A DNA stretch of 64,000 nucleotides from a virus (Duplodnaviria > Caudoviricetes), in the IMG/VR virus record IMGVR_UViG_3300002835_000001, positions 96,001 to 160,000 of that record; one strand, written 5' to 3'. The translations under genes were made by a program, and so were the position numbers. Shown here in pieces: positions 801 to 18,905 of this stretch. The notes below the pieces were generated by a model. It was given only the letters and a program-made list of their open reading frames with translations, was not told where the DNA came from and made no database searches. Position 1 is the first letter of the stretch. Each line of letters opens with the position of its first letter.

Positions 801-1385
801 TTACATAGCACCTAAAAACATTCCCGTAAATAAAAAGTAATCTGAGTAGAATCTACCAACACCCCCACCAAAATATGGTCGAACGCTAACATAATCACCT
901 ATACCTAAATAAATGATACCATGTGTATGAATACCATCTACGTGATTCGCAACGGAACCATGACCATATATGTTTAATGGGGTATATCCTTCATTCCAAG
1001 AGTCTACACCATTTTTACCAAATCCAAAATGGATATATCCGGATGTTGAATTGTTATCATTGTGATAATATGCTTGTGCATAAAAATAATAATGACCAGC
1101 TAATGGTGCGGTGAATCTACCTGTTGAATTGCTAAAACCAGAACCAACTTGTGTTGAGGTATAACCCATTTGACTGCCAACTTCTCTCCACGCTGTTCCA
1201 CCAAAATTTGCGGAGTACATCCACGTAGCTACAGTTCCACGGGCATTAAAAGATGGTTGTCCCGATGCCCGTAGGTTTGTACCAACACTTAAATTACCAT
1301 TCAAGGATACTCCCGTATCAAACGCACCTGAGTTTTGATTTATTGTTGATTCAGAATATGTTGTATCTCCTACGTATATTGCCAT
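801..1385 (-). CDS. C1q-like domain adhesin / receptor-binding protein
   Basis: FNARG...FSNSTGRFTAPLAGHYYF...YLGIGDYVSV...FTG pattern of the C1q/TNF-like jelly roll. Confidence 0.8.
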   Translation of the reverse strand: MAIYVGDTTYSESTINQNSGAFDTGVSLNGNLSVGTNLRASGQPSFNARGTVATWMYSANFGGTAWREVGSQMGYTSTQVGSGFSNSTGRFTAPLAGHYYFYAQAYYHNDNNSTSGYIHFGFGKNGVDSWNEGYTPLNIYGHGSVANHVDGIHTHGIIYLGIGDYVSVRPYFGGGVGRFYSDYFLFTGMFLGAM

Positions 1386-1388
1386 AAT

Positions 1389-1973
1389 TTAACCTATTAA
1401 ATATCCACAAAATAATGTATAACTACCATAAAGTTTACCAATTGTACCACCCCAACAAGGAATCACGCTAGCGTAATCCCCAACGCCTAAATTCATTATT
1501 GCCGATACATTTATACCATCTGAGTGATTAACTAATTCCCCATGACCATAAATATTATATGGTGTTTGACCATTATTCCAACTCACATTACCATTTAATG
1601 CCAATTGATAATGAACATACCCCGATGTACTATTGCTATCAATATAATAGTATGTTGAGGAGTGAAAATAATACTTCCCCGCAACTGGCGCTGTGTATCT
1701 ACCAGTAGATGTGCTGAATCCATATGATCCAGCACCTTGTTGAGATACTCCCCAACCTACGGGACTCCCCAATTCTCTACATCCTGTTCCACCAAACGAC
1801 GACCCATAAATCCAAGCACCACTTCCATTTGCATTAAATGCCGGTTGAACACCAATCGTTGTTGAATAAGCCGAGGGTGATGGTTGAACCAAATTACCGG
1901 TCAACGCTAACGCACCACTGGCTCCAGCTATTGTATTGTTACTATATGTTGCTCCTCCTAAATAAATTGGCAT
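1389..1973 (-). CDS. C1q-like domain adhesin / receptor-binding protein
   Basis: PAFNANG...FSTSTGRYTAPVAGKYYF...LGVGDYASV...FCGYLIG; paralog of 801..1385. Confidence 0.8.
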   Translation of the reverse strand: MPIYLGGATYSNNTIAGASGALALTGNLVQPSPSAYSTTIGVQPAFNANGSGAWIYGSSFGGTGCRELGSPVGWGVSQQGAGSYGFSTSTGRYTAPVAGKYYFHSSTYYYIDSNSTSGYVHYQLALNGNVSWNNGQTPYNIYGHGELVNHSDGINVSAIMNLGVGDYASVIPCWGGTIGKLYGSYTLFCGYLIG

Positions 1974-2263
1974 TATAAAAAGGGATCAGGTGATGGGTTT
2001 ATCATGTCACCATACACATCTGGTTGTACTTGACTTCTTTCTTCAGCTGAAACAATGTTTGATGCCATAACAATTTCTTCTTTTGACCCAGATATTGTTT
2101 CACCCGCAGCTAATTTTCTTGTTATCTCATTACTTACAATTTCATCAATTGCAGATTCACATCTTGCAAATACAAAATTTTCAAACCAATCTTGTGGATC
2201 TACTGCAACCCATCTTAATGCTTTCTCTTGTGCTTCTGTTAATGTTACTGTGTACTGTGCCAT
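1973..2263 (-). CDS. Small acidic companion protein in the C1q cassette (possible assembly chaperone)
   Basis: 96 aa, translationally coupled to 1389..1973; function inferred from context only. Confidence 0.6.
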   Translation of the reverse strand: MAQYTVTLTEAQEKALRWVAVDPQDWFENFVFARCESAIDEIVSNEITRKLAAGETISGSKEEIVMASNIVSAEERSQVQPDVYGDMINPSPDPFL

Positions 2264-2276
2264 ATTTTTTGTTTTT

Positions 2277-2284
2277 TATAAATA
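2277..2284 (-). promoter_or_regulatory. TATTTATA motif
   Basis: 13 nt upstream of ATG 2263. Confidence 0.45.
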
Positions 2285-2294
2285 TAATTAATTT

Positions 2295-2888
2295 TTAACC
2301 AATTTTCCACCCCCAAAATCCTGTGTGTGCTCCATAAAGTCTAGTTGTATTTGCATTAATATAAACTCTAATGTCAACATAGTCACCCGCGGCTAATGAC
2401 ATAACTCCCGATACACAAATACCATCAGGATAATTTCCGGCAGCGCCATGTGTATAAATTGTATATGGTGTTTGACCATTATTCCAACCTAATCCACCAT
2501 TTTTTGCAAATTGTGGGTGAATATAACCGGCACCAGTGTTGTATGGTGAGGAAAGATCGTTCAACATATAAAGATTCATCATAAAATGATAATAACCCGC
2601 AGATGGTGCTGTGAATCTACCTGTTGATGTACTAAAATTACCTGTTCTATCTGTTGTTACCCATGCAATTCTTGAATCTAATATATTCCACTGTGCCGCA
2701 CCGTTCCAACCAGAATCGTTTGGGTACCTCCACGCATTTAATGATCCGTTTGCTCTAAATATTGGGTTGTTAATACCTCTTCTATGCCAACCACTAATTG
2801 CTAATGATGTGCTTGGTAATGACAATGTACCAGATGCTGGCGTAATTGTTTTGTCCCCAAATATTGTACCTTCTACATTTAATGGCAT
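2295..2888 (-). CDS. C1q-like domain adhesin / receptor-binding protein
   Basis: PIFRANG...FSTSTGRFTAPSAGYYHF...LAAGDYVDI...FWGWKIG; third paralog. Confidence 0.8.
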   Translation of the reverse strand: MPLNVEGTIFGDKTITPASGTLSLPSTSLAISGWHRRGINNPIFRANGSLNAWRYPNDSGWNGAAQWNILDSRIAWVTTDRTGNFSTSTGRFTAPSAGYYHFMMNLYMLNDLSSPYNTGAGYIHPQFAKNGGLGWNNGQTPYTIYTHGAAGNYPDGICVSGVMSLAAGDYVDIRVYINANTTRLYGAHTGFWGWKIG

Positions 2889-2889
2889 A

Positions 2890-5800
2890 CTATATTTTTT
2901 CTAAAACAATTTTAAATTTTTCTCCGTTATTATTGTTAATAATATACAGATTTTCTACACCTTCCTGTATAGTCCACGTACCTTTTGTTCCATCAATATC
3001 ATTTCCTTCAGGTTTATTCATGTTACTTAAGTGCAAGTCATTCGTATAAACGTTAGCCCAACCGAGTGATGCTGAACCTAAATTATATGAGTTATTTGAA
3101 CTTGGTAATAGGTTAGTGTGTGACCTAACATTACTGTCACTAGTACCTATAGAAAATAAGACAGTTCCCAAATCTTCTGAATCATAAAATCGGATACCAC
3201 CATATGATGATTGTGCACCCATGCGGATACCTGTATGCCACCTCAAATCTAATTTAGCATGATTACCTCCAAAGTTTTCCTTATTAGTACCTATGTAATA
3301 ATTAGTAATCGCATCAGTATCACCACCACCAAAAAATAATCTTGTGGAATCGACTGAACTATGTGCATTATTTGAATAGTTTCCACCTATAACCAAATAT
3401 CCACTTGTAACGGCATTACTTGATAGGGTTCCAGTACTACCGGCAGTTGTTGCACTTGTTGCGGTTGCGGCATTACCATCAATACTAACACCTGTTAATG
3501 TTTGTGAGGAACTTGCCCTACCTAATGATATTGATGTTGTACCAACGTGGAAAGATGAGTTGGCTAAATTGGCATTTGCAATTGCTGTACCGTTCCAAGT
3601 ACCACTTGTAATTGTACCAACTGTTGTAATAGCTAATGCATTTATTCTTGCTAAGGTTTCATCACCGGTGTTTGTTCCTGAAGATGCTCCACTATAGTTT
3701 GATGATGCAAATGTTCCAGCAATTTGCATATTACCAGATGTTGCGTTTAACGAAGCAATTGGTGCGGTACTTAATCTACCCCAAGTAAATCCTCTACCGG
3801 GGTCCGCATCATTCATTTGTGTTTTAATAGAATAATCTGTAACTGTACCATACTGATACAATGAAGAGTTACCCATACTGATTTTATATGCGTCTGAGTC
3901 CCAAAATTTAATTCCATTTCCATTACCCGCCGTTACGTTATAAAAACTATTTGAATTACTACCGTTTGGTGCGGTTGTTGCTGTAGCGGCATTACCATCA
4001 ATCGATACTCCAGTTAATGTTTGTGATGCACTTGCTCTACCTAAAGATATTGATGTTGTACCAACATGAAACGATGAGTTTGCTAAATTAGCATTTGCAA
4101 TTGCTGTACCATTCCAAGTACCACTTGTAATTGTACCAACTGTGGTGATTGCTAAAGCATTTATTCTTGCTAAGGTTTCATCACCGGTGTTTGTGCCACT
4201 TAGGTTTAGTAAAGAGGATACACTAGCAAGTGAAACAGGTGCGTAAGTACCATTACCAGTTGTACCAAAAAGCCATCCCACACCACTTGATATAGCAGTT
4301 GAACTAAAATTAGCATATCCCGCACCAGTACCCCATTGAGTAGCATAAGCAGCAGTACCATCAATACTAACTCCTGTTAACGTTTGTGATGCACTTGCCC
4401 GACCTAATGATATTGACGTTGTTCCAACGTGGAACGATGAATTTGTTAATTGTGCATTACCGATTCCTGTAACTTGTGCTGATCCGGAAAAAACACCGAC
4501 AGCATTTAATCTTGTTAATATACCTGACGCATAGTTTGTGGTTGCAGTTAAATCAATTTGTGCTGACCCTGATACAACAGATATACCATTAAAGAATGAA
4601 CCTGAATGTATTGTTGTTCCGTTTAATACTTGTGCACTACCTGAAACTGTACCTGAAGGTAAATTAGCTATTGTTTGTGCCGAACTTGAAACAATACCAC
4701 TTGGTATGTTACTTAATCCTGTGTATGATATTTGAGATGAACCAGATATAACCCCTTCGGTATTTAATTCTTTTTTAACCCCATCTAAGAAATGTACGGA
4801 ACCAGTATCTAATGTAAGTGTCCGTGTTGTTGAGATATCACCACCTCCACTTAAACCATTACCCGCACTAATTGATACGGCTGTATGATCAATATGTCTA
4901 TTTGCAACATATCCTGTTGTTGAGTCGTGTGCAATTTGAGATGAACCAGAAACTAGTGTAGGTTTATTTGCGACGTTAGAATATTCAACATACGATGCTG
5001 TTGCTGCGGTGCCTAATAAATTAGTTCCAACACCATTTGCCAATGTTGAAATATCGAGGAAGGCACCTCTTGCATTACCACCTTGTTCAAAAAATCTCAA
5101 TCTATTTTGCCAAACATCTATTGTTACACCATCACCCGCAAGTGTTGTGTTGGTTATTGCTTTACCTAATAATATTTCACCACCCTCGTCTCCACCAGCA
5201 GCATTTACTGTTAATTTATTACCACCAGCAACAATTAATGAACCTGTAATTTCAGTATTATTATTTAGACTAATTTTACTTCCATTATCAAAAATACTTG
5301 AAGTGGTTAAATGGTGTCCGTGTCCATTGTCCTCAACCTTGGTTAAAAAATTCCCAACTAGTGTTTGTGTGTTATCGATACCTGTACCTAACGGCCCATA
5401 TAATAAAATACTTGCGTCATCGGTTCCAACATCTGAATGTTGGAATTTCCAATTGTTTGTTAGTGAGTCATAAAACAAGGACGCAGTGACGTTTGTTGAC
5501 CCAGAATCAAAAACGGAAATACCCGCATATCTAATTGCAGGTGTGTCCGAATTTAGTATAATTTTATTCGTACCAATACTAACGGCTGATGCTGTTATAT
5601 TTTCTAAAGATGATGAACCTTGTACAATTAAGTTTTGAGAGATATAAAGTGAACCTGTTATCGTTTGAGTACCCTGAAATATATTTGAACCGGTTGTTGC
5701 ATAGCTACCAGTTTTAGATTCAATTGAATCTACCCGATTTTTTATTCCAAGAGTTGTGGTTGCAATACTAGAACTTAAACCACTTGTTGTTGTTGCAATA

Positions 5801-7776
5801 GAGGAAGATAAACTTCCAATACTAGAACTTAAACCAGATGTTGTTGTTGCAATAGAACTAGACAAACCCCCAATTGAAGATGTTAACGATGAACTTAAAC
5901 TTGTTATGGTACTTGTTAATCCTGATGTTGTTGTAGCAACACTAGAACTCAACTCCACAATACTTGTTGAAACAGAAGAACTAAAAGTTAAATAACCTGT
6001 TGTTCCTGTTATAATAACTTGAACCGAACCAGATATGATTGATTCGCTATCTAATTTGTTTTTAATAGTAGTATTAATTGAACTACTAAATGTATTTAAA
6101 CTACTTGTTGTTGTTTCAATAGAATCTATCCGATTTTTTGCTCCGATGGTTGTGGTTGCTATTGAACTTGAAAGAAACCCAATAGAAGAACTTAATCCTG
6201 ATGTTGTTGTTGCAATACTTGAAGATAAACCCCCAATACTTGTAGATACCGATGAACTTAACGAACTAATTGTTGAATTAATTGAACTTGATATACTTCC
6301 AATACTACTTGTTAAAGAAGAACTTAAACTTGTAATTGTACTTGTCAGTCCACTTGTTGTGGTTGCAATTGAAGAAGATAAATTTCCTACACTAGAACTT
6401 AAACCAGATGTTGTAGTTGCTACCGATGACGATAAAGAACCAATACTAGAACTTAAACCACTTGTTGTTGTTGCGATAGATGAACTTAATCCTGATGTGG
6501 TGGTTGCAACTGATGATGATAAACTTCCAATAGAAGAACTAAGTCCACTAGTTGTTGTTGCCAATGAACTTGATAAAGAACCAATTGAGGATGTCAATGA
6601 TGAACTCACACTTGTTATGGTACTTGTTAATCCTGATGTTGTTGTTGCAATACTTGAACTTAATGAACCAATACTAGAACTTAATCCTGATGTTGTTGTT
6701 GCAATACTTGAACTTAATGATGTATTTCCACCTAATAATGAACCAATACTTGTAGATACTGAAGAACTAAATGATTGTAAATCAATTCCGTCAACATTAC
6801 CTGTTAAATCTATTGAACCACTAACAATTACTGTATCACCAAAAACTATGTTGGTTCCACCTGATGAAGTTATTTTAAAACCATCTTGTATTTGTGTTGT
6901 TCCCTTTATTGATATAAGACCATTTGTTGGGTCAAATAATATATCCCCACCGCCCGATGATTTTAATTCGATGTCACCATCGGCAGATTGTAATATAATT
7001 GAATCCGAACCAGCTTCTAATATTTTAATTGATTGACCTGTGTCAGTTGTAATTGTAAGTTCCTGTGAGGTACTTCCCAATACTTTGGTACCGTCAATAT
7101 ATAATGACCCTGAAGAAATGTAAACGTCTCTCCATTGATGTGTCGTACTACCTAAATCGTATGTATTATCTACTGATGGTATAATCGAACCAGATATGGT
7201 TTGACTACCTTTAAATAAGTTACTACCAGTCGTTGCGTAATTACTTTCAATCGTTGTTAATCTATTACTTTGTGAAACATCTGTTAAAGCAATTGATGAA
7301 CTTAATAATCCTAATGAACTTGATATTGAACTTGATATTGACGATGTATATGATTGAAATGTTGTTTCATCTAATTTACCTACTCCGACCGCAATACCAT
7401 TCAATGATAAGGTTCCTGCAATTGCTACCGAACCTGTAAATTGATGTACATCGTTGTTATCGTTACCAAACATAGATGAACCACTAGCGAAACTTGTAGT
7501 CATATAAGTTACCGATGAACTTACAATATAGTTGGTTGCAATAATTGACCCTGTAACGGATAAATCACCTTGAATTTGGGTATTTTTATTAACGGTAAAA
7601 CCCGTTGATGAAATTGATGCTGTGGCGTTTCCGCTTGCTATTTGTGATAGGTTTAGACCTGTAACACCTGATGCCGGAAGGTTATATAAACTTCCACCAT
7701 CCCCTTTAAATGAACCTGTAAATAGGGAAGCTGTTATTGAGCCTGAAACCGAGGCGATTGAACCGTAAAATTCCAT
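2890..7776 (-). CDS. Long tail fibre protein (Ser/Thr-rich shaft, shared C-terminal domain)
   Basis: 1628 aa; SSSIATTTSGL repeats, beta-repeat shaft, C-terminus YTNDLHLSN...WTIQEG.ENLYIIN shared with two other fibres. Confidence 0.8.
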   Translation of the reverse strand: MEFYGSIASVSGSITASLFTGSFKGDGGSLYNLPASGVTGLNLSQIASGNATASISSTGFTVNKNTQIQGDLSVTGSIIATNYIVSSSVTYMTTSFASGSSMFGNDNNDVHQFTGSVAIAGTLSLNGIAVGVGKLDETTFQSYTSSISSSISSSLGLLSSSIALTDVSQSNRLTTIESNYATTGSNLFKGSQTISGSIIPSVDNTYDLGSTTHQWRDVYISSGSLYIDGTKVLGSTSQELTITTDTGQSIKILEAGSDSIILQSADGDIELKSSGGGDILFDPTNGLISIKGTTQIQDGFKITSSGGTNIVFGDTVIVSGSIDLTGNVDGIDLQSFSSSVSTSIGSLLGGNTSLSSSIATTTSGLSSSIGSLSSSIATTTSGLTSTITSVSSSLTSSIGSLSSSLATTTSGLSSSIGSLSSSVATTTSGLSSSIATTTSGLSSSIGSLSSSVATTTSGLSSSVGNLSSSIATTTSGLTSTITSLSSSLTSSIGSISSSINSTISSLSSSVSTSIGGLSSSIATTTSGLSSSIGFLSSSIATTTIGAKNRIDSIETTTSSLNTFSSSINTTIKNKLDSESIISGSVQVIITGTTGYLTFSSSVSTSIVELSSSVATTTSGLTSTITSLSSSLTSSIGGLSSSIATTTSGLSSSIGSLSSSIATTTSGLSSSIATTTLGIKNRVDSIESKTGSYATTGSNIFQGTQTITGSLYISQNLIVQGSSSLENITASAVSIGTNKIILNSDTPAIRYAGISVFDSGSTNVTASLFYDSLTNNWKFQHSDVGTDDASILLYGPLGTGIDNTQTLVGNFLTKVEDNGHGHHLTTSSIFDNGSKISLNNNTEITGSLIVAGGNKLTVNAAGGDEGGEILLGKAITNTTLAGDGVTIDVWQNRLRFFEQGGNARGAFLDISTLANGVGTNLLGTAATASYVEYSNVANKPTLVSGSSQIAHDSTTGYVANRHIDHTAVSISAGNGLSGGGDISTTRTLTLDTGSVHFLDGVKKELNTEGVISGSSQISYTGLSNIPSGIVSSSAQTIANLPSGTVSGSAQVLNGTTIHSGSFFNGISVVSGSAQIDLTATTNYASGILTRLNAVGVFSGSAQVTGIGNAQLTNSSFHVGTTSISLGRASASQTLTGVSIDGTAAYATQWGTGAGYANFSSTAISSGVGWLFGTTGNGTYAPVSLASVSSLLNLSGTNTGDETLARINALAITTVGTITSGTWNGTAIANANLANSSFHVGTTSISLGRASASQTLTGVSIDGNAATATTAPNGSNSNSFYNVTAGNGNGIKFWDSDAYKISMGNSSLYQYGTVTDYSIKTQMNDADPGRGFTWGRLSTAPIASLNATSGNMQIAGTFASSNYSGASSGTNTGDETLARINALAITTVGTITSGTWNGTAIANANLANSSFHVGTTSISLGRASSSQTLTGVSIDGNAATATSATTAGSTGTLSSNAVTSGYLVIGGNYSNNAHSSVDSTRLFFGGGDTDAITNYYIGTNKENFGGNHAKLDLRWHTGIRMGAQSSYGGIRFYDSEDLGTVLFSIGTSDSNVRSHTNLLPSSNNSYNLGSASLGWANVYTNDLHLSNMNKPEGNDIDGTKGTWTIQEGVENLYIINNNNGEKFKIVLEKI
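3461..4195. repeat. Internal direct repeat of ~215 nt (3461-3676 and 3980-4195), plus a partial third copy at ~4352-4455
   Basis: Both copies encode GTNTGDETLARINALAITTVGTITSGTWNGTAIANANLANSSFHVGTTSISLGRAS(S/A)SQTLTGVSIDGNAATAT; offset 519 nt. Confidence 0.9.
4838..4955. repeat. 118-nt segment repeated at 12661..12778 in another fibre gene
   Basis: Both encode LVSGSSQIAHDSTTGYVANRHIDHT(A/S)VSISAGNGLSGGGD with few nucleotide differences. Confidence 0.9.
5690..6730. repeat. Degenerate tandem Ser/Thr repeats (SSSIGSL / SSSIATTTSGL)
   Basis: Seen directly in DNA (recurring ccaatactagaacttaa.cc.gatgttgt) and in the protein. Confidence 0.85.
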
Positions 7777-7792
7777 TAATTTATAGTTTAAC

Positions 7793-7834: not shown

Positions 7835-8224
7835 TTAGGGAACCATTTGGGGTGGAACATTATCAACATCAGGTACTGGTAGAATTTCCGTTCTCCACAA
7901 TTGATTTTCTTCGTCCCAAATATGTACCTTACCCTCTTCTTGTTCAGGAGATTCGATAGGTGCAATCCAAATTTGATTAACCGTATCTAAAGACCATGAA
8001 TTATATGGTTTGGGTGGTAAAAAGATATCTAATTCAGGTAGATACCAATACCCAATTGCTGCATATATTTTTCTTATATTACCATTATACGATGTTTGAA
8101 TCCATGTCCCACCTAATTGTAAATCATTGGATAAATAATCATTTCCTCTATGTTGTTGTTCGTCAGGAACAACTAAAATATCAACAACTACGTTGTTAGA
8201 ATCAATTCGTGCAAAATGTGCCAT
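7835..8224 (-). CDS. Small companion protein downstream of the Gly-rich adhesin (tail-fibre-assembly-like)
   Basis: 129 aa MAHFARIDSNNVVVDILVV...WIQTSYN...FLPPKPYNSW...W.API..P...WDEENQ.W; coupled to 8226..9869. Confidence 0.6.
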   Translation of the reverse strand: MAHFARIDSNNVVVDILVVPDEQQHRGNDYLSNDLQLGGTWIQTSYNGNIRKIYAAIGYWYLPELDIFLPPKPYNSWSLDTVNQIWIAPIESPEQEEGKVHIWDEENQLWRTEILPVPDVDNVPPQMVP

Positions 8225-10720: not shown

Positions 10721-11497
10721 TTATCTACCAAACCTACCTCTTGTTGCTTGATAATATTCGTTTATTTCATAAGGATGTAAAACTCTATTATAAAGTGATA
10801 TCATTCCAATGTCACCCCAAGGTTGACTTGATGCATTTGGGTTATTTTGGTCTCCGTTGTTGTATGCACCAACAGAACAGAAACCATGTTTAAATCTTGC
10901 GTTTGAGCTTGAAATTGACCCCCGTATAACTCCCGCAGTTTCATTATAACTAAAAAGATGATAAGGTACCTCAGCGTCATACCATCTCCAAACTAACATA
11001 TCCCAATTTGAAGTATTATATGCTGGTAAACTTTGTTGACTAAATCCATTACTATTAAAACCGGTACCATTTGTATTATCATACATACCGATAGCCCATG
11101 CTCCTGATTGAATAATCACTTGGTGGTCGGGTCCTGAACTTAAACCTCTCAATAGTGTTCTCCATTCAGCAGTACTATTCTTAACTCTTGTCCAACAAAC
11201 ACATGTTACATTACCCGATAATGGTACGTCTGAACTTGTTTTCTTTGCACAACCATATGAACCATTGAAGTCCATATACTTTGGTCCTGATGAATTGTAT
11301 GCGGATGCGTTTATAATAAAATTATATCCATTTCCACTTAAGTCATTCCATGCGGTTCCACTACCAGGATATGATTCTACATCGCCAGCATCTAAGTGTA
11401 AGACCATTCCGTCCCGTGTAATTTTTGTTTTGAATATACCACCACTAGTGATGTCACTTGAACTTATTACCTTATTGTTTTTAACATATAGTGGCAT
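10721..11497 (-). CDS. LamG/ConA-like lectin domain protein
   Basis: MVLHLDAGDVESYPGSGTAWNDLSGNG...ISLYNRVL...YYQATRGRFG. Confidence 0.85.
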   Translation of the reverse strand: MPLYVKNNKVISSSDITSGGIFKTKITRDGMVLHLDAGDVESYPGSGTAWNDLSGNGYNFIINASAYNSSGPKYMDFNGSYGCAKKTSSDVPLSGNVTCVCWTRVKNSTAEWRTLLRGLSSGPDHQVIIQSGAWAIGMYDNTNGTGFNSNGFSQQSLPAYNTSNWDMLVWRWYDAEVPYHLFSYNETAGVIRGSISSSNARFKHGFCSVGAYNNGDQNNPNASSQPWGDIGMISLYNRVLHPYEINEYYQATRGRFGR

Positions 11498-11498
11498 A

Positions 11499-13892
11499 TT
11501 ATATAATCTCTGTTAAATCTATTTTGAACTTCTTACCGTTCTTATGATTTATAATATACAGATTTTCTTGACCTTCCTGTATAGTCCAATCACCTGTTGT
11601 TCCATCTATTTCATTTCCACCTTCTTTACCTTCGTTACTTAGGTGTAAGTCATTGGTATATAAGTTGGCCCATCTAAGTGATGAACTACCTAAATTGTAT
11701 GAATTGTTTGCAAATGGAACCATATGACCATCTGTTTGAATTCTGATTCTTTGTACGGCATTTGACCAAAAATCTATATTTCCATTTTCTGTGTAAATAT
11801 TTAAACCTCCAGCTCCTGCCCACGATGATGCGTTTTGGTTTCCAAGCCAAATGTAAGCATTACGAGTACCCGCCTTAAAGTTCACTTGAACATATTCATT
11901 AGTCCCGGCTGATGTATTTTCAAATCTAACCATTTCACCACTTCCACGAGCATGTAATGTTAATGCCGGACTCACACCTACACCTAAACTACTAAATTGT
12001 ACTGCGTTACCCGTACCAACACTTTGGTTAATTGTATATGCGGTAATATTTGTGGCAGTACCACTAATATTCATAGATTGACCACTAAGTAATGCGGCCG
12101 CCGCTGCTGCTGTATAACTTCTATAATAGTAATCACTTGTATTATGTCCAGCAAAATAACCCATACCCGATGCATTTCTTTCAGATCCACCACCAGATGC
12201 ATTGAAATAGTTGTTAACAATATAACCGTTTGAGTCAGCAACAACTATTCTATTTGCAGTTCCGCTTGTTTGTGATGGTGTAAATCCACCGGCAGTCGTT
12301 GAATTTGTGGCCGATGTTGCATTTCCACTTAATGCTCCAGTAAATGTTGTTGCACTTACTGTTGAGAATGTTGGTGTTGATGTTGTTAATAACGCCTGAT
12401 TTAAATAAGTACCAAATCCCGTTGTTGATGTTAAACTAATTTGTGAAGAACCCGAAACAAGTCCTGATGGTATACTAGATATAGAACCAAAAGTTATTTG
12501 AGATGATCCAGATACGATACCAGACGGAATTCCAGTAAGAGAACCGAATGTTACTTGAGCACTTCCAGATATAACACCGTCCGCATTCATTTTGGTTTTT
12601 ACACCCGTAGTAAATGTTGCGGATGTTGTGTCAAGACTAATTGTCCGCGTAGATGATATGTCACCACCTCCACTTAAACCATTACCGGCACTAATTGATA
12701 CTGATGTGTGGTCAATGTGCCTATTTGCAACATATCCTGTTGTTGAATCGTGTGCAATTTGAGATGAACCAGAAACTAATGTTGTTCCTGTTGAGCTAAA
12801 TGTTCCATTAACAATTGTATTTGAAAGCATCGTAATCGTTGTTCCATCATCACTAATATTGCTATTGGTTAAATGTTCAATTCCTGTACTTTTAACTAAT
12901 CTGTTTGATGTGATATACGATTCATTACCTACATTATTATATGTCTCTGGACCCATTAACAAGACAGATGATGTAACTGAAGCTTGATTTTGGTGAACAA
13001 ATAGCCATTGATTATTAATTGAATCAAATAAAATTGAACCAGATACCTGTGGTGATGACCCACTATCAATAACTGCAAGTCCACCGAATCTAACGCTTGG
13101 ATTCAAAGCGTTAACGGTTATAATGTTATCGGCAATATTAAGAATTGATGAACTAACGTGTTGAATTGACGATGAACCAGCGACAATTAAATCTTGAGAG
13201 ATGAAAAGGGATCCGGTAATTGTTTGTGAACCTTGAAATATATTTGAACCAGTGGTTGCATAACTACCTGTTTTTGCTTCGATAGAATCGACCCGATTCT
13301 TTGTATTAAGAGTGGTAGTCGCAACTGAACTAGATAAACTTCCAATACTTGTAGATATACTTGAACTGAATGTTGAGTATCCCGTTGTTCCTGTTATTTC
13401 AATTTGTGATGAACCTGATGCAATACCTGATGGTTTTGAAGCGATATTATCCCAAGTTGTTTGAGTTATCGAACCACTCAACACATATCTACCATCATAT
13501 GATGATGTTAATTGTGATGAACCTGATACAATACCTGAAGGTATTCCCGTTAATCCTGAATATGTAATTTGTGATGAACCTGATACCAATGGTGTAACCG
13601 TTGATACGATACTACCTGATATTGTTTGATTACCAATAAAAGTATTTGAACCCGTAGTTGCTAAACTTGAACTATATGTGTTAAAAGAAGATGTTAACAA
13701 ATAACTTGGAGCCGAGGATGCTGTTAGAGCGTTTGTAATTGAACCACTCATTGTTAAATCACCCAATGTTAATCCTGTCATTCCTGATAGGTCGAGTGTA
13801 CCTCCTGAAAATGATATATTTGAACCACTTCCTGAAATAAATGATACTACATTACCCGAATTGTCTTTAAATTTAAATGCTCCGTTTGCCAT
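11499..13892 (-). CDS. Tail fibre protein with the shared C-terminal domain
   Basis: 797 aa; shares shaft modules with the other fibres; ends YTNDLHLSN...WTIQEGQENLYIIN. Confidence 0.8.
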   Translation of the reverse strand: MANGAFKFKDNSGNVVSFISGSGSNISFSGGTLDLSGMTGLTLGDLTMSGSITNALTASSAPSYLLTSSFNTYSSSLATTGSNTFIGNQTISGSIVSTVTPLVSGSSQITYSGLTGIPSGIVSGSSQLTSSYDGRYVLSGSITQTTWDNIASKPSGIASGSSQIEITGTTGYSTFSSSISTSIGSLSSSVATTTLNTKNRVDSIEAKTGSYATTGSNIFQGSQTITGSLFISQDLIVAGSSSIQHVSSSILNIADNIITVNALNPSVRFGGLAVIDSGSSPQVSGSILFDSINNQWLFVHQNQASVTSSVLLMGPETYNNVGNESYITSNRLVKSTGIEHLTNSNISDDGTTITMLSNTIVNGTFSSTGTTLVSGSSQIAHDSTTGYVANRHIDHTSVSISAGNGLSGGGDISSTRTISLDTTSATFTTGVKTKMNADGVISGSAQVTFGSLTGIPSGIVSGSSQITFGSISSIPSGLVSGSSQISLTSTTGFGTYLNQALLTTSTPTFSTVSATTFTGALSGNATSATNSTTAGGFTPSQTSGTANRIVVADSNGYIVNNYFNASGGGSERNASGMGYFAGHNTSDYYYRSYTAAAAAALLSGQSMNISGTATNITAYTINQSVGTGNAVQFSSLGVGVSPALTLHARGSGEMVRFENTSAGTNEYVQVNFKAGTRNAYIWLGNQNASSWAGAGGLNIYTENGNIDFWSNAVQRIRIQTDGHMVPFANNSYNLGSSSLRWANLYTNDLHLSNEGKEGGNEIDGTTGDWTIQEGQENLYIINHKNGKKFKIDLTEII

Positions 13893-13895
13893 TTT

Positions 13896-13903
13896 TATAA
13901 ATA
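13896..13903 (-). promoter_or_regulatory. TATTTATA motif
   Basis: 3 nt upstream of fibre ATG 13892. Confidence 0.55.
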
Positions 13904-13922
13904 GTTCATAGATTGAATTAGA

Positions 13923-14651
13923 TTAAAGTCCGAATCTACTTTTTTGAGTATTATAATTTTGTGTGACCATTGAACTTGTAAAACCAATACCTTTATAAAC
14001 TTTAACAGAAGATACCCTCATATTACCGTAGGTTCCACCCGCATTACCAATTAAAAGGGGTTCACTAGAATTGTTAACAGATTTACTAGTGAAATCACTA
14101 GAATCAACTAATGAGCCATTTACATATAGTGTAACTGTATTTGATATTCTTGTTACCACCCCGTGCATCCATCCGTTAACAATACCAGAATTTGAAACAC
14201 CACCTTCATATACACCATCGTTGGTATATAATCTAATGGCATTACTACTAGTTGATGTCATAACAATCCAATTTGATGCTGGCCATTTTGATGGAAAAGT
14301 ACCTATTATACCCTGATATGGTGTGGCTACCGATACAATATAAACCCAAACTTCAATTGTGAATTCTCCAGTGCCAAAACTCCAATTTGAAGAATATGGA
14401 ATTGTAATATAATCATTACTACCGTCAAGATTAATATAACCTTGATTATTACTACTAAATGTAGGTCCGTTTATTAATGTACCATGATTATTTTTTCCAG
14501 ACATATCATACCAATCTACACCAGAACCCGAATAAGATTCTAATGCCGATGCGTCTAAATGTAAAACCAATCCTCTTTCGATTATGTTTTTATAATCACC
14601 CACACTAGCGTGTGTTCCATCATATATGTGACCCCCAATATTAAACGGCAT
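13923..14651 (-). CDS. LamG/ConA-like lectin domain protein
   Basis: LVLHLDAS...WYDMSGKNNHGTLINGPTF...FTIEVWV...WMHGVVTR...QNYNTQKSRFGL. Confidence 0.85.
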   Translation of the reverse strand: MPFNIGGHIYDGTHASVGDYKNIIERGLVLHLDASALESYSGSGVDWYDMSGKNNHGTLINGPTFSSNNQGYINLDGSNDYITIPYSSNWSFGTGEFTIEVWVYIVSVATPYQGIIGTFPSKWPASNWIVMTSTSSNAIRLYTNDGVYEGGVSNSGIVNGWMHGVVTRISNTVTLYVNGSLVDSSDFTSKSVNNSSEPLLIGNAGGTYGNMRVSSVKVYKGIGFTSSMVTQNYNTQKSRFGL

Positions 14652-14661
14652 AATTTATATT

Positions 14662-15984
14662 TTATAATCCAAATCTATTTTTTTGTATATTATAATTTTG
14701 TGAAATTTCGGATAATGTTAAAATTCTTTCATATAATTTATATGAACCTAAAGTCATATTTGTATAACCACCATAACCAGGTGATGTACCATATAAATTA
14801 TATGTCCCTATTGAATGACAAACGATAGATGGTCCACCATTATATGTTGTACCTGTAAAACTACTATCAAGTGAACCATTAATATAAAATTTGTATTCAT
14901 TATTTTGTGTTGTGACAGTAATATGATACCAAGTTCCAACAGTTAAGGTTGCTTGTGAAAATGAATCTATAATATATGCTGAAGTATCATACCAAATAAA
15001 TTTCAATTTATTATTTGATGCGAATTGTAGTCTTAATTCAGGATTACCGCCAGAAGCGTCAGCCAAAGTCCACCAATATGAACCATTTCCTGTTGCATTA
15101 AATTTAACCCAAAACTCTGTTGATATGATTGAAGACGTTGAGCCGGCAAATAATGACGTAGGTAAATTTAACCAATCATTTGTACCGTCAAATATCAACG
15201 ATCCACCATTTGATGAACTATATGTTGGCCCATTAACTAACGTTCCTGTATCATTTCTTTTACTAGAACGTATATATTCTAATGTTAAATCTGTAACTTC
15301 AGTACCAGACGCTTCTCCAGCAATAATACAACATCTATCTGTAGCCGAACATGCAACATCTGCCTTAATTGCTGTCCAAGGACCTGTTTTGGATGTTGAT
15401 GAATATTGAACACTTAAATTAGTCCCACTTCTCACCCATTTAAACCAATATCCTGTTGTTGCACCTCCGCCACCTGAAATTGGTGAGTGATATTGGCCAT
15501 GATGTGATGCACTATACCCATTTGGAAATCCTGATGTACTTAATGATCCACCATAAGGCCCTGTAGGATCTGCCGAATATCCATTAAAGTCAAAATGGGA
15601 TACATTTGTACCATATATTATGGCAATGCCTCTAAAATCACGAGCCCAATATGCAACGACTTCAAAATCTTCATTTGCATTAAATGTCCTATCTAAAACC
15701 ACCGCAGAATAACCTCCTTGTGCCTCCGGCTCAGAACTCCAAACTCTACCACCATTTAATAAAGTTCCTTTTATGTGAAATGTTGATGGTTGTCTCCATC
15801 CTGTTGCGAAATCTGAATTTGTTATTGAACTACTAAGGTCATTAACAACTGTTCCGGTTTCAGGATAAGAATCGGGAGCACCTGCATCCATATGAAATAT
15901 TAAACCTCTATTAATTACATTTTTGTAATTTAAAGTTTTAACTATACTACTATTAACAATATTTCCATTTATATCTAAAGGCAT
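14662..15984 (-). CDS. LamG lectin with an inserted second beta domain
   Basis: LIFHMDAG...NDLS [~165 aa insert] NDTGTLVNGPTY...WYHITVT...QNYNIQKNRFGL. Confidence 0.8.
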   Translation of the reverse strand: MPLDINGNIVNSSIVKTLNYKNVINRGLIFHMDAGAPDSYPETGTVVNDLSSSITNSDFATGWRQPSTFHIKGTLLNGGRVWSSEPEAQGGYSAVVLDRTFNANEDFEVVAYWARDFRGIAIIYGTNVSHFDFNGYSADPTGPYGGSLSTSGFPNGYSASHHGQYHSPISGGGGATTGYWFKWVRSGTNLSVQYSSTSKTGPWTAIKADVACSATDRCCIIAGEASGTEVTDLTLEYIRSSKRNDTGTLVNGPTYSSSNGGSLIFDGTNDWLNLPTSLFAGSTSSIISTEFWVKFNATGNGSYWWTLADASGGNPELRLQFASNNKLKFIWYDTSAYIIDSFSQATLTVGTWYHITVTTQNNEYKFYINGSLDSSFTGTTYNGGPSIVCHSIGTYNLYGTSPGYGGYTNMTLGSYKLYERILTLSEISQNYNIQKNRFGL

Positions 15985-15985
15985 A

Positions 15986-16237
15986 TTAGTGATGTGTTTC
16001 TTCTTTAAGCCATGTTGGCGTGTTTAATATTTCAATAATTTCATTATGTGTATATGGTCCTTGTTTTGTTGTTAAATTAGAAACGCTAAGTGGCATTTCA
16101 TCTGAATCATATTTCACAAAAGTTAATGTTTCGTCAACTGATTTTCTAACGGTACCAGATGACGTTTCTTGAACTTCGTTGAAATCAATTTTATCTAATT
16201 CACTTACATCAAAAATTATATATTTTCTATTTTCCAT
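15986..16237 (-). CDS. Small companion protein of the LamG cassette (MENRKYIIFDVSELDKIDF...)
   Basis: Real ATG most likely 16237, 1 nt after the fibre stop; the ORF-track extension to 16369 overlaps the fibre gene. Confidence 0.7.
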   Translation of the reverse strand: MENRKYIIFDVSELDKIDFNEVQETSSGTVRKSVDETLTFVKYDSDEMPLSVSNLTTKQGPYTHNEIIEILNTPTWLKEETHH

Positions 16238-16238
16238 A

Positions 16239-18905
16239 TTACGATTTTTTTGGTGTTGCAGTTGACGGATCTTCTTCCTGTAAAACAAAAGAGTAAACTT
16301 TATTATTTTTATTATTATATAAATATAATTTTTCTTCACCCTCAACAATTGTGTAATCACCAATACCATTACTTAAACTTAAGTCAGATGTATAGACAGT
16401 ACCCCAACGTAATGATGACGTTCCTAAGTCTTGTGTTCCATTTGCTGCCGGCCGAACCGTTCCGACAGATGTTATTCGTAATCTTTCAGCTGGTGAACCA
16501 CCATTTATTCTTGTACCAAATGATAGATATGATGCATAATCTCCACCGGTTGAGTTTTCTTTACCTCCTTTAATGTAGGAGAATGTGTTAATAATTGAAC
16601 TAGTTCCGCTAAAATATCCAGCAAATGAAATACCTCCACCAGTTCCAGTTGTTGCGGATGTGGTGTCAAATACTCTTATTGTGGTTGTTACGTCTCCTTG
16701 ACTTACATTAGGACCATCAACCGCAAGTCTGAATCCTTGGGTGTCGGTAGTTCCAAGACCTAGGTTAGCAGACTCATTTAAGGTCATTGCAGTTGTAAAG
16801 TTGATGGCATTACCTGTAGTTCCTGATGGGGCTTGTTGCCAAAGAAATGCACCTGTATTTTCTAAATAAAATCTTGAAGCTGCAGCAGTGTTAATATATA
16901 TATTGTTGCTACCATTAAAATAAGTGTTGTTACCAAAAAGTGCATTGTTAAATCCATCATTATAAACAGACATTCTTGCACCTATTTGAATTACCTTTGA
17001 ACTTTCGCCCCATGAACTAGGTGTGACACCTACACCAACGTTACTTGTTGTTACTAATGATCCAGTTACAGTTGTGTTTCCATTAACATCTAATTGTGAG
17101 TTTGGGGTATTTTTATTTATACCAACAAATGTACTATTACCATCAATTACAATATGATTTTTAGTAAAGTCATTTGAAACAATATATGTTTTACCATCTT
17201 GACCTTGGCCAAAATATGAACTCATTGTTGATCCTGAGTTTACGGCATTTCTAACTCTTATAAAGTTTCTTGTTCCTGATGTATAATCTCCATTCCAAAA
17301 TTCACCCATCACATTCTGTGTTGAAACAGAACTTGTATATATATTTAATTGTGTTGAGGAAGGACTATTAATTGATATGTTACCTGTTGTTGATATACTA
17401 CCAGTAAGTATTGTATCACCATTATTCTTTAATTTTAAATTTGTTAAACCAGCACTATTTTTAAAATTAAGGTCAACATTAGAATCAATACTTATTTCAG
17501 GGTTACCAGATGCCCCCGAAGTATCGAATATGATTCCTTTGTCTACACCTACTAATACGCTACCTGTAATTGATAAACTACCACTAATTCCAATTCCACC
17601 TCCAGTTTCGCTTATAATACTATCACCAACATGTTCATTACCCGTACCTTTTAATATCCGATTATTCGTAGGGTAACTTTCGTTACCAACGTTGTTGTAG
17701 GTCTGTGGACCCATTAACGCCACGGATGAGGTTATGTTGGTACCATCACCTCTATGTATAAAAATAAATTCGTCCTGCACCGCATCATATAAAAAAGAAC
17801 CAGAACCACCAATTGATCCGCTATCAAATACGCTCAAACCAGCAAATCTAATTGCAGGATTTGCGGTGTTTAAGTTTACAATGTTTGCACCAATGTTAAC
17901 CGCAGATGCTGTTATATTTTGTAAAGACGAACTACCTTGTACAACTAAATCAGAACTAATATATAAACTACCAGTAATTGTTTGTATACCTACAAAGTTA
18001 TTACTTCCTGTTGTTGCATAGCTACCTGTTTTAAATTCAATTGAATCTACCCGATTTTTTATTCCTAATGTTGTTGTTGTAATTGAACTAGATAATGTAT
18101 TAATTGAATTTGATATCGATGAACTAAATGTTGAATATCCCGTTGTTCCTGTTATATCGATTTGTGATGAACCTGAGGCAATCCCAACTGGTTTATTTGC
18201 AATATTATCCCAAGTTGTTTGGGTAATACTACCACTTAACACATAACGAGAATCGTAACTACTTGTTAATTGTGATGAACCTGAAATAATTCCACTAGGG
18301 ACGTTACTTAATCCAGTATATGATATTTGTGAAGAACCTGATACCAATGGTGTAACCGTTGATACGATACTACCAGTTACTACAATGCCATTACCAAAAT
18401 GAATTGCATTTCCGTCTGATGATAAAATTCTATTTCCGGCATATATTTGTGTGCTACCTTTTAATGCAATAATTCCCGTTGTTGGGTCTAAAATAACGTC
18501 TCCACCACCTGAAGTTGCAAGTGTAATATTACCATCATTACTTTGTAATGTAATTGTATCCGAACCCGCTTCTAATATTTTAAATGATTGTCCAACATCT
18601 GTTGTAATCTGTAATTCTTGTGATGTACTACCTAAAACTTTTGTACCATCAATGTATAGTGAACCTGAGGATATATAAACGTGTCTAAATTGTTGAGTTG
18701 AGCTACCTAAGTCATACGTGTTGTTAACGGCAGGTAATATTGAACCACTTATTGTTTGTGTTCCTTTAAATAAATTACTACCTGTTGTTGCGGTTGAACC
18801 AGTTAAACCATTAAATGATGCTGTTGTTGCAAACACATTTAAATCGGTAATTGTGGTTCCGTTTAAACTTAAACTACTGGTGAGTTGAGGTCCGTCTATT
18901 CTCAT
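16239..18905 (-). CDS. Tail fibre protein with the shared C-terminal domain
   Basis: 888 aa; ~105-aa module shared with 2890..7776; ends VYTSDLSLSN.GDYTIVEGEEKLYLYN. Confidence 0.8.
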   Translation of the reverse strand: MRIDGPQLTSSLSLNGTTITDLNVFATTASFNGLTGSTATTGSNLFKGTQTISGSILPAVNNTYDLGSSTQQFRHVYISSGSLYIDGTKVLGSTSQELQITTDVGQSFKILEAGSDTITLQSNDGNITLATSGGGDVILDPTTGIIALKGSTQIYAGNRILSSDGNAIHFGNGIVVTGSIVSTVTPLVSGSSQISYTGLSNVPSGIISGSSQLTSSYDSRYVLSGSITQTTWDNIANKPVGIASGSSQIDITGTTGYSTFSSSISNSINTLSSSITTTTLGIKNRVDSIEFKTGSYATTGSNNFVGIQTITGSLYISSDLVVQGSSSLQNITASAVNIGANIVNLNTANPAIRFAGLSVFDSGSIGGSGSFLYDAVQDEFIFIHRGDGTNITSSVALMGPQTYNNVGNESYPTNNRILKGTGNEHVGDSIISETGGGIGISGSLSITGSVLVGVDKGIIFDTSGASGNPEISIDSNVDLNFKNSAGLTNLKLKNNGDTILTGSISTTGNISINSPSSTQLNIYTSSVSTQNVMGEFWNGDYTSGTRNFIRVRNAVNSGSTMSSYFGQGQDGKTYIVSNDFTKNHIVIDGNSTFVGINKNTPNSQLDVNGNTTVTGSLVTTSNVGVGVTPSSWGESSKVIQIGARMSVYNDGFNNALFGNNTYFNGSNNIYINTAAASRFYLENTGAFLWQQAPSGTTGNAINFTTAMTLNESANLGLGTTDTQGFRLAVDGPNVSQGDVTTTIRVFDTTSATTGTGGGISFAGYFSGTSSIINTFSYIKGGKENSTGGDYASYLSFGTRINGGSPAERLRITSVGTVRPAANGTQDLGTSSLRWGTVYTSDLSLSNGIGDYTIVEGEEKLYLYNNKNNKVYSFVLQEEDPSTATPKKS

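What the first reader, a model, noticed from the sequence alone, without database searches (positions are those of the whole stretch)
801..18905. Repeated cassette: fibre, then several lectin tips, plus a dedicated companion gene (candidate modular plug-in receptor-binding system)
Seen: the same layout occurs three times in transcription order. (a) Fibre 16239..18905, companion 15986..16237, two LamG genes. (b) Fibre 11499..13892, two LamG genes, a Gly-rich adhesin, companion 7835..8224. (c) Fibre 2890..7776, C1q, companion 1973..2263, two C1q genes. All three fibres end in the same C-terminal domain and all eight adhesins start with a similar short motif. The fourth long fibre (18902..23824) ends instead in an S74 chaperone and is followed by another fibre, not by an adhesin. 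Inference: the fibre tip is a universal socket for interchangeable small lectin heads of three unrelated folds, giving one virion many receptor specificities. Known branched RBP systems (G7C, CBA120) use N-terminal docking domains on large tailspikes, which is a different design.
Basis: partly seen in the sequence, partly recalled or inferred. Interest (0 to 1): 0.85.

Follow-up and report, generated by a model that had tools for sequence, protein, structure and literature searches.

The report
Phage fibre-end joint with plug-in heads
Three tail fibres of a large marine phage end in the same small domain, which in many ocean phages (cyanophages included) is nearly always followed by genes that share a short N-terminal "plug", so it is probably a common, undescribed joint for attaching exchangeable receptor-binding heads.

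Summary
Three minus-strand fibres (888, 797 and 1628 aa) end in one ~70-aa domain. Eight downstream genes (4 LamG-like, 1 Gly-rich, 3 C1q-like) all start M-[P/A/G]-[I/L/F]. Three unrelated small genes sit among them.

The layout is general. In 80 IMG/VR loci and 3 cyanophages the domain is always the extreme C-terminus. The next gene starts M[APSG][ILVFYM] in 64 of 71 distinct cases, against 92 of 365 control ORFs. The partners fall into about 30 BLAST-unrelated families, some of them 1100-1800-aa fibre segments.

Close relatives carry the same C1q cassette behind the other socket variant, and LamG cassettes behind this one, so heads are swapped in nature.

Each companion family follows its head fold in unrelated phages:
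- LamG: 80 of 80 loci.
- C1q: 52 of 80 loci.
- Gly-rich: 26 of 39 loci.

Binding is only weakly supported by a predicted complex (ipSAE 0.58, best control 0.00).

The closest precedents are T2/S16 gp37-gp38 and P-SSP7 genes 36-39. In P-SSP7 the downstream proteins are in virions and carry host-range mutations.

Verdict: a real, widespread joint absent from Pfam and NCBIfam; a new variant of a known kind. The first-stage scan also noted the motif, domain and companions on this same stretch.

The parts
18902..23824 (-). 1640-aa fibre ending in a Peptidase_S74 intramolecular chaperone. It is context only and has no socket.
   Evidence: PF13884, 54.5 bits against a cut-off of 22, at residues 1538-1592.
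16239..18905 (-). Fibre (a), 888 aa. The short-variant socket is roughly its last 70 aa (16242-16451).
   Evidence: Alignments A1 and A4. The same short variant is followed by the 83-aa companion and a LamG gene in L252 and L254.
15986..16237 (-). Companion (a), 83 aa. This family is linked to LamG heads.
   Evidence: All 80 IMG/VR loci holding a homologue have a LamG-HMM hit within 3 kb, and 64 have one adjacent. Other locus sets have 3-14 of 80. In S-SKS1 it follows a LamG-ended 960-aa protein.
14662..15984 (-). LamG adhesin, 440 aa, plug MPLDINGNIV.
   Evidence: PF13385, 65.6 bits. The start lies 1 nt after the companion's stop.
13923..14651 (-). LamG adhesin, 242 aa, plug MPFNIGGHIY.
   Evidence: PF13385, 62.2 bits.
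11499..13892 (-). Fibre (b), 797 aa. The socket is its last 70 aa (11502-11711).
   Evidence: A1 and A4. The socket is 97% identical to the one that precedes the C1q cassette in relative L005.
10721..11497 (-). LamG-like adhesin, 258 aa, plug MPLYVKNNKV.
   Evidence: No Pfam hit. It matches phrog_25721, 24074 and 8510, and clusters by BLAST with the LamG adhesins.
9884..10711 (-). LamG adhesin, 275 aa, plug MGIIIGGNTF.
   Evidence: PF13385, 48.8 bits.
8226..9869 (-). Gly-rich adhesin, 547 aa, plug MPIFYRKTNI.
   Evidence: PF21722 Gly_rich_2, 41.9 bits against 24.3. The same third position in the cassette is seen in L008, L014 and L029.
7835..8224 (-). Companion (b), 129 aa (MAHFA family, phrog_7759). 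This family is linked to Gly-rich heads.
   Evidence: phrog_7759, E 8.5e-35. It lies directly after Gly_rich_2 proteins in Synechococcus phage Bellamy and Pelagibacter phage HTVC025P, and in 26 of 39 distinct IMG/VR loci.
2890..7776 (-). Fibre (c), 1628 aa. The socket is its last 70 aa (2893-3102).
   Evidence: A1 and A4. The socket is 84-90% identical to those of L008, L010 and L014, which carry LamG cassettes instead of C1q.
2295..2888 (-). C1q-like adhesin, 197 aa, plug MPLNVEGTIF.
   Evidence: Profile A3 matches solved C1q-family chains at E 2.7e-10. All 13 strong homologues keep the plug. In the predicted complex with the fibre (c) end, the median ipSAE is 0.58 against a best control of 0.00, rated weak support.
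1973..2263 (-). Companion (c), 96 aa, predicted helical. This family is linked to C1q heads.
   Evidence: A homologue is present in 52 of 80 C1q-like loci, usually 8-31 nt after a C1q ORF stop, against 2 of 80 socket loci. It also occurs in S-SRM01 and Limnohabitans phage DC33. The AF2 model has pLDDT 86 and four helices.
1389..1973 (-). C1q-like adhesin, 194 aa, plug MPIYLGGATY.
   Evidence: Pfam C1q 19.3 bits (sub-threshold). It aligns within A3.
801..1385 (-). C1q-like adhesin, 194 aa, plug MAIYVGDTTY.
   Evidence: Pfam C1q 18.1 bits (sub-threshold), phrog_15750. It aligns within A3.

Best explanation
The last ~70 residues of the three fibres form a conserved domain that must sit at a free C-terminus. 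It probably acts as an end-to-end joint on the trimeric fibre.

Proteins encoded just downstream are translated separately, starting within 1-3 nt of the preceding stop. I infer that they dock on this domain through their N-terminal segment, M-[A/P]-[I/L/V]-x-[hydrophobic]-x-G. The small second residue should allow removal of the Met and so expose the plug. The docked parts are lectin-like heads (LamG, C1q-like, Gly-rich). In other phages they are further fibre segments or tiny caps.

The joint is generic. Head cassettes are exchanged behind it by recombination, which gives this phage three fibres carrying eight candidate receptor-binding heads. I infer that the three small companions are head-fold-specific assembly factors. 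They would play the roles of T4 gp57A/gp38 or lambda Tfa, but are not homologous to them.

Shown here: the conserved coupling, the swaps and the companion-to-head links.
Inferred: docking, stoichiometry, presence in virions, and the chaperone role.
For: 1. Position. The domain is always at the extreme C-terminus, in 80 IMG/VR loci, 3 cyanophages, and every full-length match among the top 150 of 12,872 cluster representatives.

2. Next gene. It starts M[APSG][ILVFYM] in 64 of 71 distinct cases, against 92 of 365 control ORFs (Fisher p = 2e-25). The controls are contaminated by the 2nd and 3rd adhesins of the same cassettes, so the contrast is understated. Within the window the figures are 8 of 8 against 2 of 42.

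3. Partner diversity. Partners fall into about 30 BLAST-unrelated families that share only the plug.

4. Reverse test. All 9 loci with short C1q genes that carry the plug have a socket-ended fibre directly upstream. C1q genes with other N-termini have none.

5. Natural swaps. In L005 and L006 the same C1q cassette (adhesin 95-96% identical) follows a fibre whose shaft matches fibre (c) (60-72%) but whose socket is 94-97% identical to that of fibre (b). Sockets of the (c) type in L008, L010 and L014 (84-90%) carry LamG/Gly-rich cassettes.

6. Covariation. Among loci with non-homologous partners, plug similarity rises with socket identity (rho 0.107; 9 of 1000 permutations reach it).

7. Predicted complex. 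Last 110 aa of fibre (c) x3 plus the 197-aa C1q x3 gave a median ipSAE of 0.58 (runs 0.58, 0.64, 0.35) against a best control of 0.00. The runs share at least 87% of contacts and the partner pLDDT is at least 76. The tool rates this weak support. In its calibration the mark was reached by 58 of 80 solved complexes and 2 of 110 mismatched pairs, but scores of 0.60 or under came from only 7 of those 80 and from both mismatches. My own alignments and multi-copy chains also differ from the calibration set-up.

8. A real tail fibre carries it. The domain ends gp28 of P-SCSP1u, whose distal part was unresolved by cryo-EM (PMC10575957).

9. Experimental precedent. In P-SSP7, paralogous genes 37-39 lie directly after the tail-fibre gene. 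gp37 and gp38 are in virions and carry resistance-breaking mutations (PMC5520035). gp37 starts MPITLNGSGT.

10. Companions follow the head fold.
Against: - No experiment and no interface. The complex prediction is weak and gave no contact list.
- The plug is only about 3-8 well-defined residues. Small second residues are common in proteins generally.
- P-SSP7 itself lacks this socket (its fibre ends ...GENWTIV), and L152 has plug-bearing C1q genes after an S74-ended fibre. The plug is therefore not specific to this domain, and the P-SSP7 precedent is only an analogy.
- About 10% of sockets are followed by something else (L017, L028, L037).
- In cassette (a) a companion gene separates the fibre from its adhesins.
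- The covariation is weak and the loci are not phylogenetically independent.
- The window's companions show no similarity to known tail-fibre chaperones.
Confidence: 0.62

Rival explanations
1. The C-terminal domain is only a folding or trimerisation nucleus, and a conserved linker for homologous recombination. The plug-bearing proteins attach elsewhere, on the baseplate, the fibre shaft or another fibre end. Adjacency would then reflect modular gene order.
For: The first half of the domain is a repeat found 10-30 times in giant fibre proteins and also inside these fibres' shafts, so it is partly generic fibre sequence. The recombination breakpoint lies at the domain's edge. Plug-like N-termini also follow other kinds of fibre end.
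Against: Protein-level conservation holds down to about 35-40% identity across podo- and myovirus lineages, with strictly terminal placement. The coupling to the very next gene is tight in both directions. There is weak positive covariation and a weak positive complex prediction with zero-scoring controls.
Confidence: 0.17
2. The downstream proteins are transient chaperone caps that help the fibre end fold and then leave, as proposed for Alteromonas phage A5/V22 chaperones and for T4 gp38. They would not be permanent receptor-binding heads.
For: Genes just after fibre genes are often chaperones. In podovirus-type loci a Phage_tail_APC protein sits in the cassette. Tiny 48-60-aa partners exist. 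PMC10579305 describes transient caps.
Against: The partners are LamG, C1q-like and Gly-rich binding folds of 190-550 aa, or long fibre segments. Separate small companion genes fit the chaperone role better. The analogous P-SSP7 gp37 and gp38 are virion proteins that carry host-range mutations (PMC5520035).
Confidence: 0.1
3. Fibre and adhesin are joined covalently by programmed frameshifting or read-through at the stop-start junction, so the 'plug' would be a linker inside a fusion protein.
For: The stop and start codons are 1 nt apart or overlap at almost every junction.
Against: The downstream frame is +1 in this lineage (TAAnATG) but -1 in the podovirus loci (TAATG). A Met is invariant at the start. 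No natural fusions appear among the top 150 representatives. Close spacing is the usual sign of translational coupling.
Confidence: 0.02

Closest known systems
T2/T6/S16-type long tail fibre: gp37 with the separate gp38 adhesin at its tip
   Same: A separate adhesin gene lies directly after the distal fibre gene. The adhesin is held on the trimeric fibre's C-terminal tip by its N-terminal part, and the adhesin part is glycine-rich. (Established knowledge; see PMC12032242 and PMC12892980.)
   Different: There is no sequence relation: the Gly-rich adhesin has no PDB sequence match, and the socket matches no solved tip. Here there are up to three adhesin genes per fibre, about 30 partner families including whole fibre segments, and the plug is a short motif rather than a folded attachment domain.
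Prochlorococcus podovirus P-SSP7 genes 36-39 (tail fibre plus three paralogous downstream genes)
   Same: A cassette of small paralogous genes lies right after the tail fibre, followed by a small chaperone-like gene. gp37 and gp38 are in virions and carry resistance-breaking mutations (PMC5520035). gp37 starts MPITLNGSGT.
   Different: The P-SSP7 fibre ends ...GENWTIV and lacks this socket domain. Its heads are of a different family, and no docking mechanism was proposed for them.
Tail-fibre assembly proteins and chaperones (lambda Tfa, Mu/P2 U/G, T4 gp57A and gp38, Phage_tail_APC PF16778)
   Same: They are small genes encoded next to the fibre or adhesin genes they serve. In podovirus-type socket loci the companion is a PF16778-family protein. 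The 96-aa companion is small and predicted to be all-helical; from memory, T4 gp57A is also a small helical protein, which I did not check here.
   Different: The window's three companions match no such family. Each follows a head fold (LamG, C1q, Gly-rich), not a fibre type.
Branched receptor-binding systems of G7C, CBA120 and Klebsiella phages
   Same: Several receptor-binding proteins are carried on one virion through dedicated docking modules.
   Different: In those systems, N-terminal anchor domains of large tailspikes dock on each other or on an adaptor. Here a fibre's C-terminal end domain accepts short N-terminal plugs of small lectin-like heads.

Membership tests
T2/S16 gp37-gp38 distal adhesin system | A separate adhesin gene lies immediately downstream of the distal fibre gene. 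| tested here: met
   Adhesin starts lie 1-3 nt after the preceding stop codons.
T2/S16 gp37-gp38 distal adhesin system | Sequence homology to gp38 or to the gp37 tip. | tested here: not met
   The Gly-rich adhesin has no PDB sequence match at E<=1. The socket profile matches only P-SCSP1u gp28, plus weakly T5 pb1.
T2/S16 gp37-gp38 distal adhesin system | The adhesin is bound to the fibre's C-terminal tip through its N-terminal part. | tested here: inconclusive
   Predicted complex: median ipSAE 0.58 against a best control of 0.00. The tool rates this weak support and reports no interface.
C1q/TNF superfamily (genes at 2295-2888, 1389-1973, 801-1385) | Sequence match to the C1q globular domain. 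| tested here: met
   Pfam C1q is sub-threshold (18-21 bits against 23.7). Profile A3 matches solved C1q, adiponectin and caprin-2 chains at E 2.7e-10 to 1.7e-5. Some homologues carry precomputed PF00386.
C1q/TNF superfamily | Trimeric jelly-roll assembly. | not tested
   Only the 3+3 complex job was run, and it returned no structure details.
Laminin_G_3 / concanavalin-A-like lectins | Pfam PF13385 scores above the gathering cut-off. | tested here: met
   Scores are 65.6, 62.2 and 48.8 bits against 27.6 for three genes. The fourth (10721-11497) joins them only by BLAST clustering and shared PHROGs.
Peptidase_S74 intramolecular chaperone (as the end of the three cassette fibres) | An S74 domain at the C-terminus. 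| tested here: not met
   Only the fibre at 18902-23824 has it. The three cassette fibres do not.
Phage_tail_APC (PF16778) tail assembly chaperones, for the three companions | Pfam or profile match to the family. | tested here: not met
   The window's companions have no Pfam or NCBIfam hit. hhalign against the 22-member family A2 gives probabilities of 0.06-0.11.
G7C/CBA120-type branched tailspike systems | Tailspikes with N-terminal docking domains. | tested here: not met
   No tailspike or anchor domains were detected by Pfam in any cassette gene.

The most novel reading that the evidence does not exclude
The joint offers three equivalent docking sites per trimeric fibre. The cassette genes, of which there were never more than three per socket in this sample, would assemble as a defined three-headed tip. 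Examples would be LamG + LamG + Gly-rich, or a C1q A/B/C-like heterotrimer, each folded by its own head-specific chaperone. One fibre would then read three receptors at once. This plug-and-socket grammar would be a main host-range device of ocean phages, including cyanophages.
Probability: 0.2. Interest if true: 0.85.

Novelty: new variant of a known kind. Interest (0 to 1): 0.66.

Why it matters
Which proteins decide host range in marine phages is poorly known. The distal fibre of the cyanopodovirus P-SCSP1u could not be resolved by cryo-EM (PMC10575957), and the P-SSP7 host-range genes had no assigned place in the virion (PMC5520035).

A sequence-recognisable joint would let receptor-binding genes be called directly in metagenomes. 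Here it is a terminal domain with 2,321 cluster representatives at E<=1e-30, followed by a plug motif on the next gene. It would also explain the hypervariable island downstream of tail-fibre genes, and give a natural grafting point for studying or exchanging phage receptor-binding heads in laboratory phage-host pairs.

The three companion families are candidate new chaperones specific for the LamG, C1q-like and Gly-rich folds.

Tried and rejected
- Megablast of 20 kb against the phage collection found nothing. The window's own assembly is not held. G001 gave only a marginal match.
- NCBIfam had no hits for the socket, the companions or the adhesins.
- Foldseek against PDB found no match at E<=0.001 for the socket model (only residues 60-110 are confident) or for the 96-aa companion model.
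- The ESM Atlas look-up of the 129-aa companion returned only 'hypothetical protein' viral clusters.
- hhalign of the Phage_tail_APC-type family A2 against each window companion showed no similarity.
- The promoter and terminator scan gave counts no higher than shuffled sequence, so no operon boundaries can be claimed.
- I looked for natural socket-plus-head fusions to fold as a single chain. None appear among the top 150 representatives.
- The frameshift-fusion idea is rejected because the frame offset differs between lineages.
- I considered the phrog_863 'tail fiber assembly' hit of the Gly-rich adhesin as a link to gp38. I dropped it: the profile is 690 positions long, and there is no PDB sequence match to gp38.
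- My first regex failed to re-find the 83-aa companion in 67 of 80 loci. I replaced it with phmmer and HMM searches.

Full report
**Anatomy.** All genes between 40 and 27255 lie on the minus strand. In transcription order they are as follows.
- An 811-aa fibre.
- A 1640-aa fibre ending in a Peptidase_S74 chaperone.
- Fibre (a), 888 aa, then an 83-aa gene and two LamG genes (440 and 242 aa).
- Fibre (b), 797 aa, then a LamG-like gene (258 aa), a LamG gene (275 aa), a Gly_rich_2 protein (547 aa) and a 129-aa gene.
- Fibre (c), 1628 aa, then a C1q-like gene (197 aa), a 96-aa gene and two more C1q-like genes (194 aa each).

Domain calls come from Pfam. C1q is sub-threshold in Pfam, but a family profile matches solved C1q-family chains. 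Most junctions have the start codon 1-3 nt after the preceding stop, and there are no Shine-Dalgarno-like sequences. The rest of the window encodes SprB, cadherin and DUF5977 repeat proteins, and its best protein matches are to large phages. That fits a roughly 250-kb phage of a marine Bacteroidota-like host. The closest IMG/VR relative is a 251-kb contig (L005). The host assignment is an inference.

The three fibres share their last ~70 residues (75%, 53% and 49% pairwise identity), while the shafts are about 30% identical. All eight adhesins start M[APSG][ILVFYM]..., against 2 of 42 other minus-strand ORFs in the window.

**The domain elsewhere.**
- A tblastn search with fibre (b) matched only through its C-terminus, to fibres of cyanopodoviruses (P-RSP2, P-SCSP1, P-GSP1, NATL2A-133) and cyanomyoviruses.
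- It is the end of gp28, the T7-like tail fibre of P-SCSP1u. The distal part of that fibre was not resolved by cryo-EM (PMC10575957).
- A scan of IMG/VR found more than 272 loci, and I kept 80.
- A profile search of 1.84 billion cluster representatives gave 12,872 hits at E<=1e-3 and 2,321 at E<=1e-30.
- The first half of the profile (P..N.YDLGS..RW..vY) is a repeat present 10-30 times in giant fibre proteins. It weakly resembles the stretch before the chaperone of the T5 L-shaped fibre.
- Full-length matches are always at the extreme C-terminus.
- Pfam, NCBIfam and PHROGs do not describe the domain.
- In an AF2 monomer model, residues 60-110 form a confident four-strand beta meander with no PDB match.

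**Coupling to the next gene.**
- In 64 of 71 distinct loci the gene starting within a few nt of the fibre's stop begins M[APSG][ILVFYM]. The figure for other ORFs in the same loci is 92 of 365 (Fisher p = 2e-25). Many of the 'control' matches are the second and third adhesins of the same cassettes.
- The partners fall into about 30 families with no BLAST similarity to each other. They range from 48-aa caps through 100-550-aa heads to 1126-1777-aa fibre segments.
- The reverse test also holds. Among 80 loci found with the C1q adhesin profile, all 9 whose short C1q genes start with the plug have a socket-ended fibre directly upstream. C1q genes with other N-termini have none.
- Exceptions show the plug is broader than this socket. 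L152 has three plug-bearing C1q genes after an S74-ended fibre. P-SSP7 gp37 (MPITLNGSGT) follows a fibre ending ...GENWTIV.
- The number of plug-bearing genes per socket was 1 (20 loci), 2 (11) or 3 (9), never more. This is a regex count and includes some false positives.

**Natural swaps.**
- In relatives L005 and L006, the fibre before the C1q cassette (adhesin 95-96% identical) has a shaft like the window's fibre (c) (60-72% identity). Its last 70 aa, however, are 94-97% identical to the socket of fibre (b).
- Conversely, sockets 84-90% identical to that of fibre (c) in L008, L010 and L014 are followed by LamG/LamG/Gly-rich cassettes.
- Both socket variants therefore serve both cassette types.
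- Across loci with non-homologous partners, plug similarity rises weakly with socket identity (rho 0.107; 9 of 1000 permutations reach it). These loci are not phylogenetically independent.

**Predicted binding.** I folded the last 110 aa of fibre (c) in 3 copies with the 197-aa C1q adhesin in 3 copies, using alignments A4 and A3.
- The median ipSAE was 0.58 (runs 0.58, 0.64, 0.35) against a best control of 0.00.
- The runs share at least 87% of their contacts, and the partner pLDDT is at least 76.
- The tool rates this as weak support. In its calibration the mark was reached by 58 of 80 solved complexes and 2 of 110 mismatched pairs. Scores of 0.60 or under came from only 7 of those 80 solved complexes and from both of the mismatches that passed.
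- My own alignments and multi-copy chains differ from the calibration set-up, and no interface was reported.
- With the strong genomic prior I count this as mild support, not proof.

**Companions.** The three small genes are unrelated to each other and to Phage_tail_APC, but each follows one head fold.
- Homologues of the 83-aa gene have a LamG-HMM hit within 3 kb in 80 of 80 loci, adjacent in 64. The three other locus sets have 14, 3 and 8 of 80. In S-SKS1 the gene follows a LamG-ended 960-aa protein.
- Homologues of the 96-aa gene occur in 52 of 80 C1q-like loci, usually 8-31 nt after a C1q ORF stop, with or without a socket. They occur in only 2 of 80 socket loci, both of which are C1q cassettes. 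They are also present in S-SRM01 and Limnohabitans phage DC33. The AF2 model is helical with pLDDT 86 and has no PDB match.
- The 129-aa gene (phrog_7759) lies directly after Gly_rich_2 proteins in Synechococcus phage Bellamy, in Pelagibacter phage HTVC025P, and in 26 of 39 distinct IMG/VR loci. About ten loci have a different ORF directly upstream instead, which looks like a 2OG-Fe(II) oxygenase to me.
- In podovirus-type socket loci, the gene after the single adhesin belongs to a 22-member family whose members match PF16778, the tail assembly chaperones.
- I infer that the companions are head-specific assembly factors. This is an analogy, not homology.

**Comparison with known systems.**
- Multi-protein fibres with a separately encoded distal adhesin are known from T2/S16 gp37-gp38. 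Fibre chaperones encoded just downstream are common.
- In P-SSP7, three paralogous genes after the fibre gene give virion proteins that carry resistance-breaking mutations (PMC5520035).
- What is new here is a specific, very widespread and unannotated acceptor domain, a shared plug across about 30 partner families, documented cassette swapping behind it, and three head-specific companion families.

I therefore class this as a new variant of a known kind. Confidence is 0.62 for the docking model. The genomic coupling itself is close to certain.

Noticed in passing
window 40-765 (-): A 241-aa ORF (MNNIGFGIFC...) sits just after the last adhesin cassette. Relatives L005, L010, L014 and L029 have a homologue starting MNNIG[FV]GIFC in the same position. 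It has no Pfam hit.
   Followed up: partly
window 2890-7776, 16239-18905 and 23974-26409 (-); proteins P0015-P0038: The first half of the socket (P..N.YDLGS...RW..vY) is a repeat. It recurs near the N-terminal parts of the window's own fibres, and 10-30 times in giant (2000-5000 aa) proteins in the representative library. It weakly resembles the stretch just before the S74 chaperone of the T5 L-shaped fibre.
   Followed up: partly
L152:59-5156 (IMG/VR): A 1075-aa fibre ending in an S74-type chaperone is followed by three plug-bearing C1q-like genes and the C1q companion. This suggests that S74-processed ends can also accept plug-bearing heads.
   Followed up: no
L171:4866-9737 (P-SSP7); L114, L132, L143: A second kind of fibre end (...G..W.I[VL]*) is followed by plug-like N-termini (MPITLNGSGT, MAIIFDGTQG, MTLLLNGTNG). 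In P-SSP7 the cassette also holds a 96-aa protein of the A2 chaperone-like family.
   Followed up: partly
L197, L204, L213, L215, L216, L223, L224, L230, L235, L251: In about ten loci the MAHFA-family gene (homologue of window 7835-8224) follows an ORF of about 205-225 aa ending ...ISLSFNTF..., not a Gly-rich protein. It looks like a 2OG-Fe(II) oxygenase to me, but I did not check.
   Followed up: no
L004:5408-5590 (Synechococcus phage ACG-2014e); L059, L073, L074: Tiny plug-bearing ORFs of 48-60 aa directly follow socket-ended structural proteins in cyanomyovirus-like loci. They may be minimal fibre caps.
   Followed up: no
window 56143-63667 (-): Two very large proteins carry SprB and cadherin repeats (1249 aa) and DUF5977 (1181 aa). 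These domains are typical of Bacteroidota surface proteins and hint at the host group.
   Followed up: no
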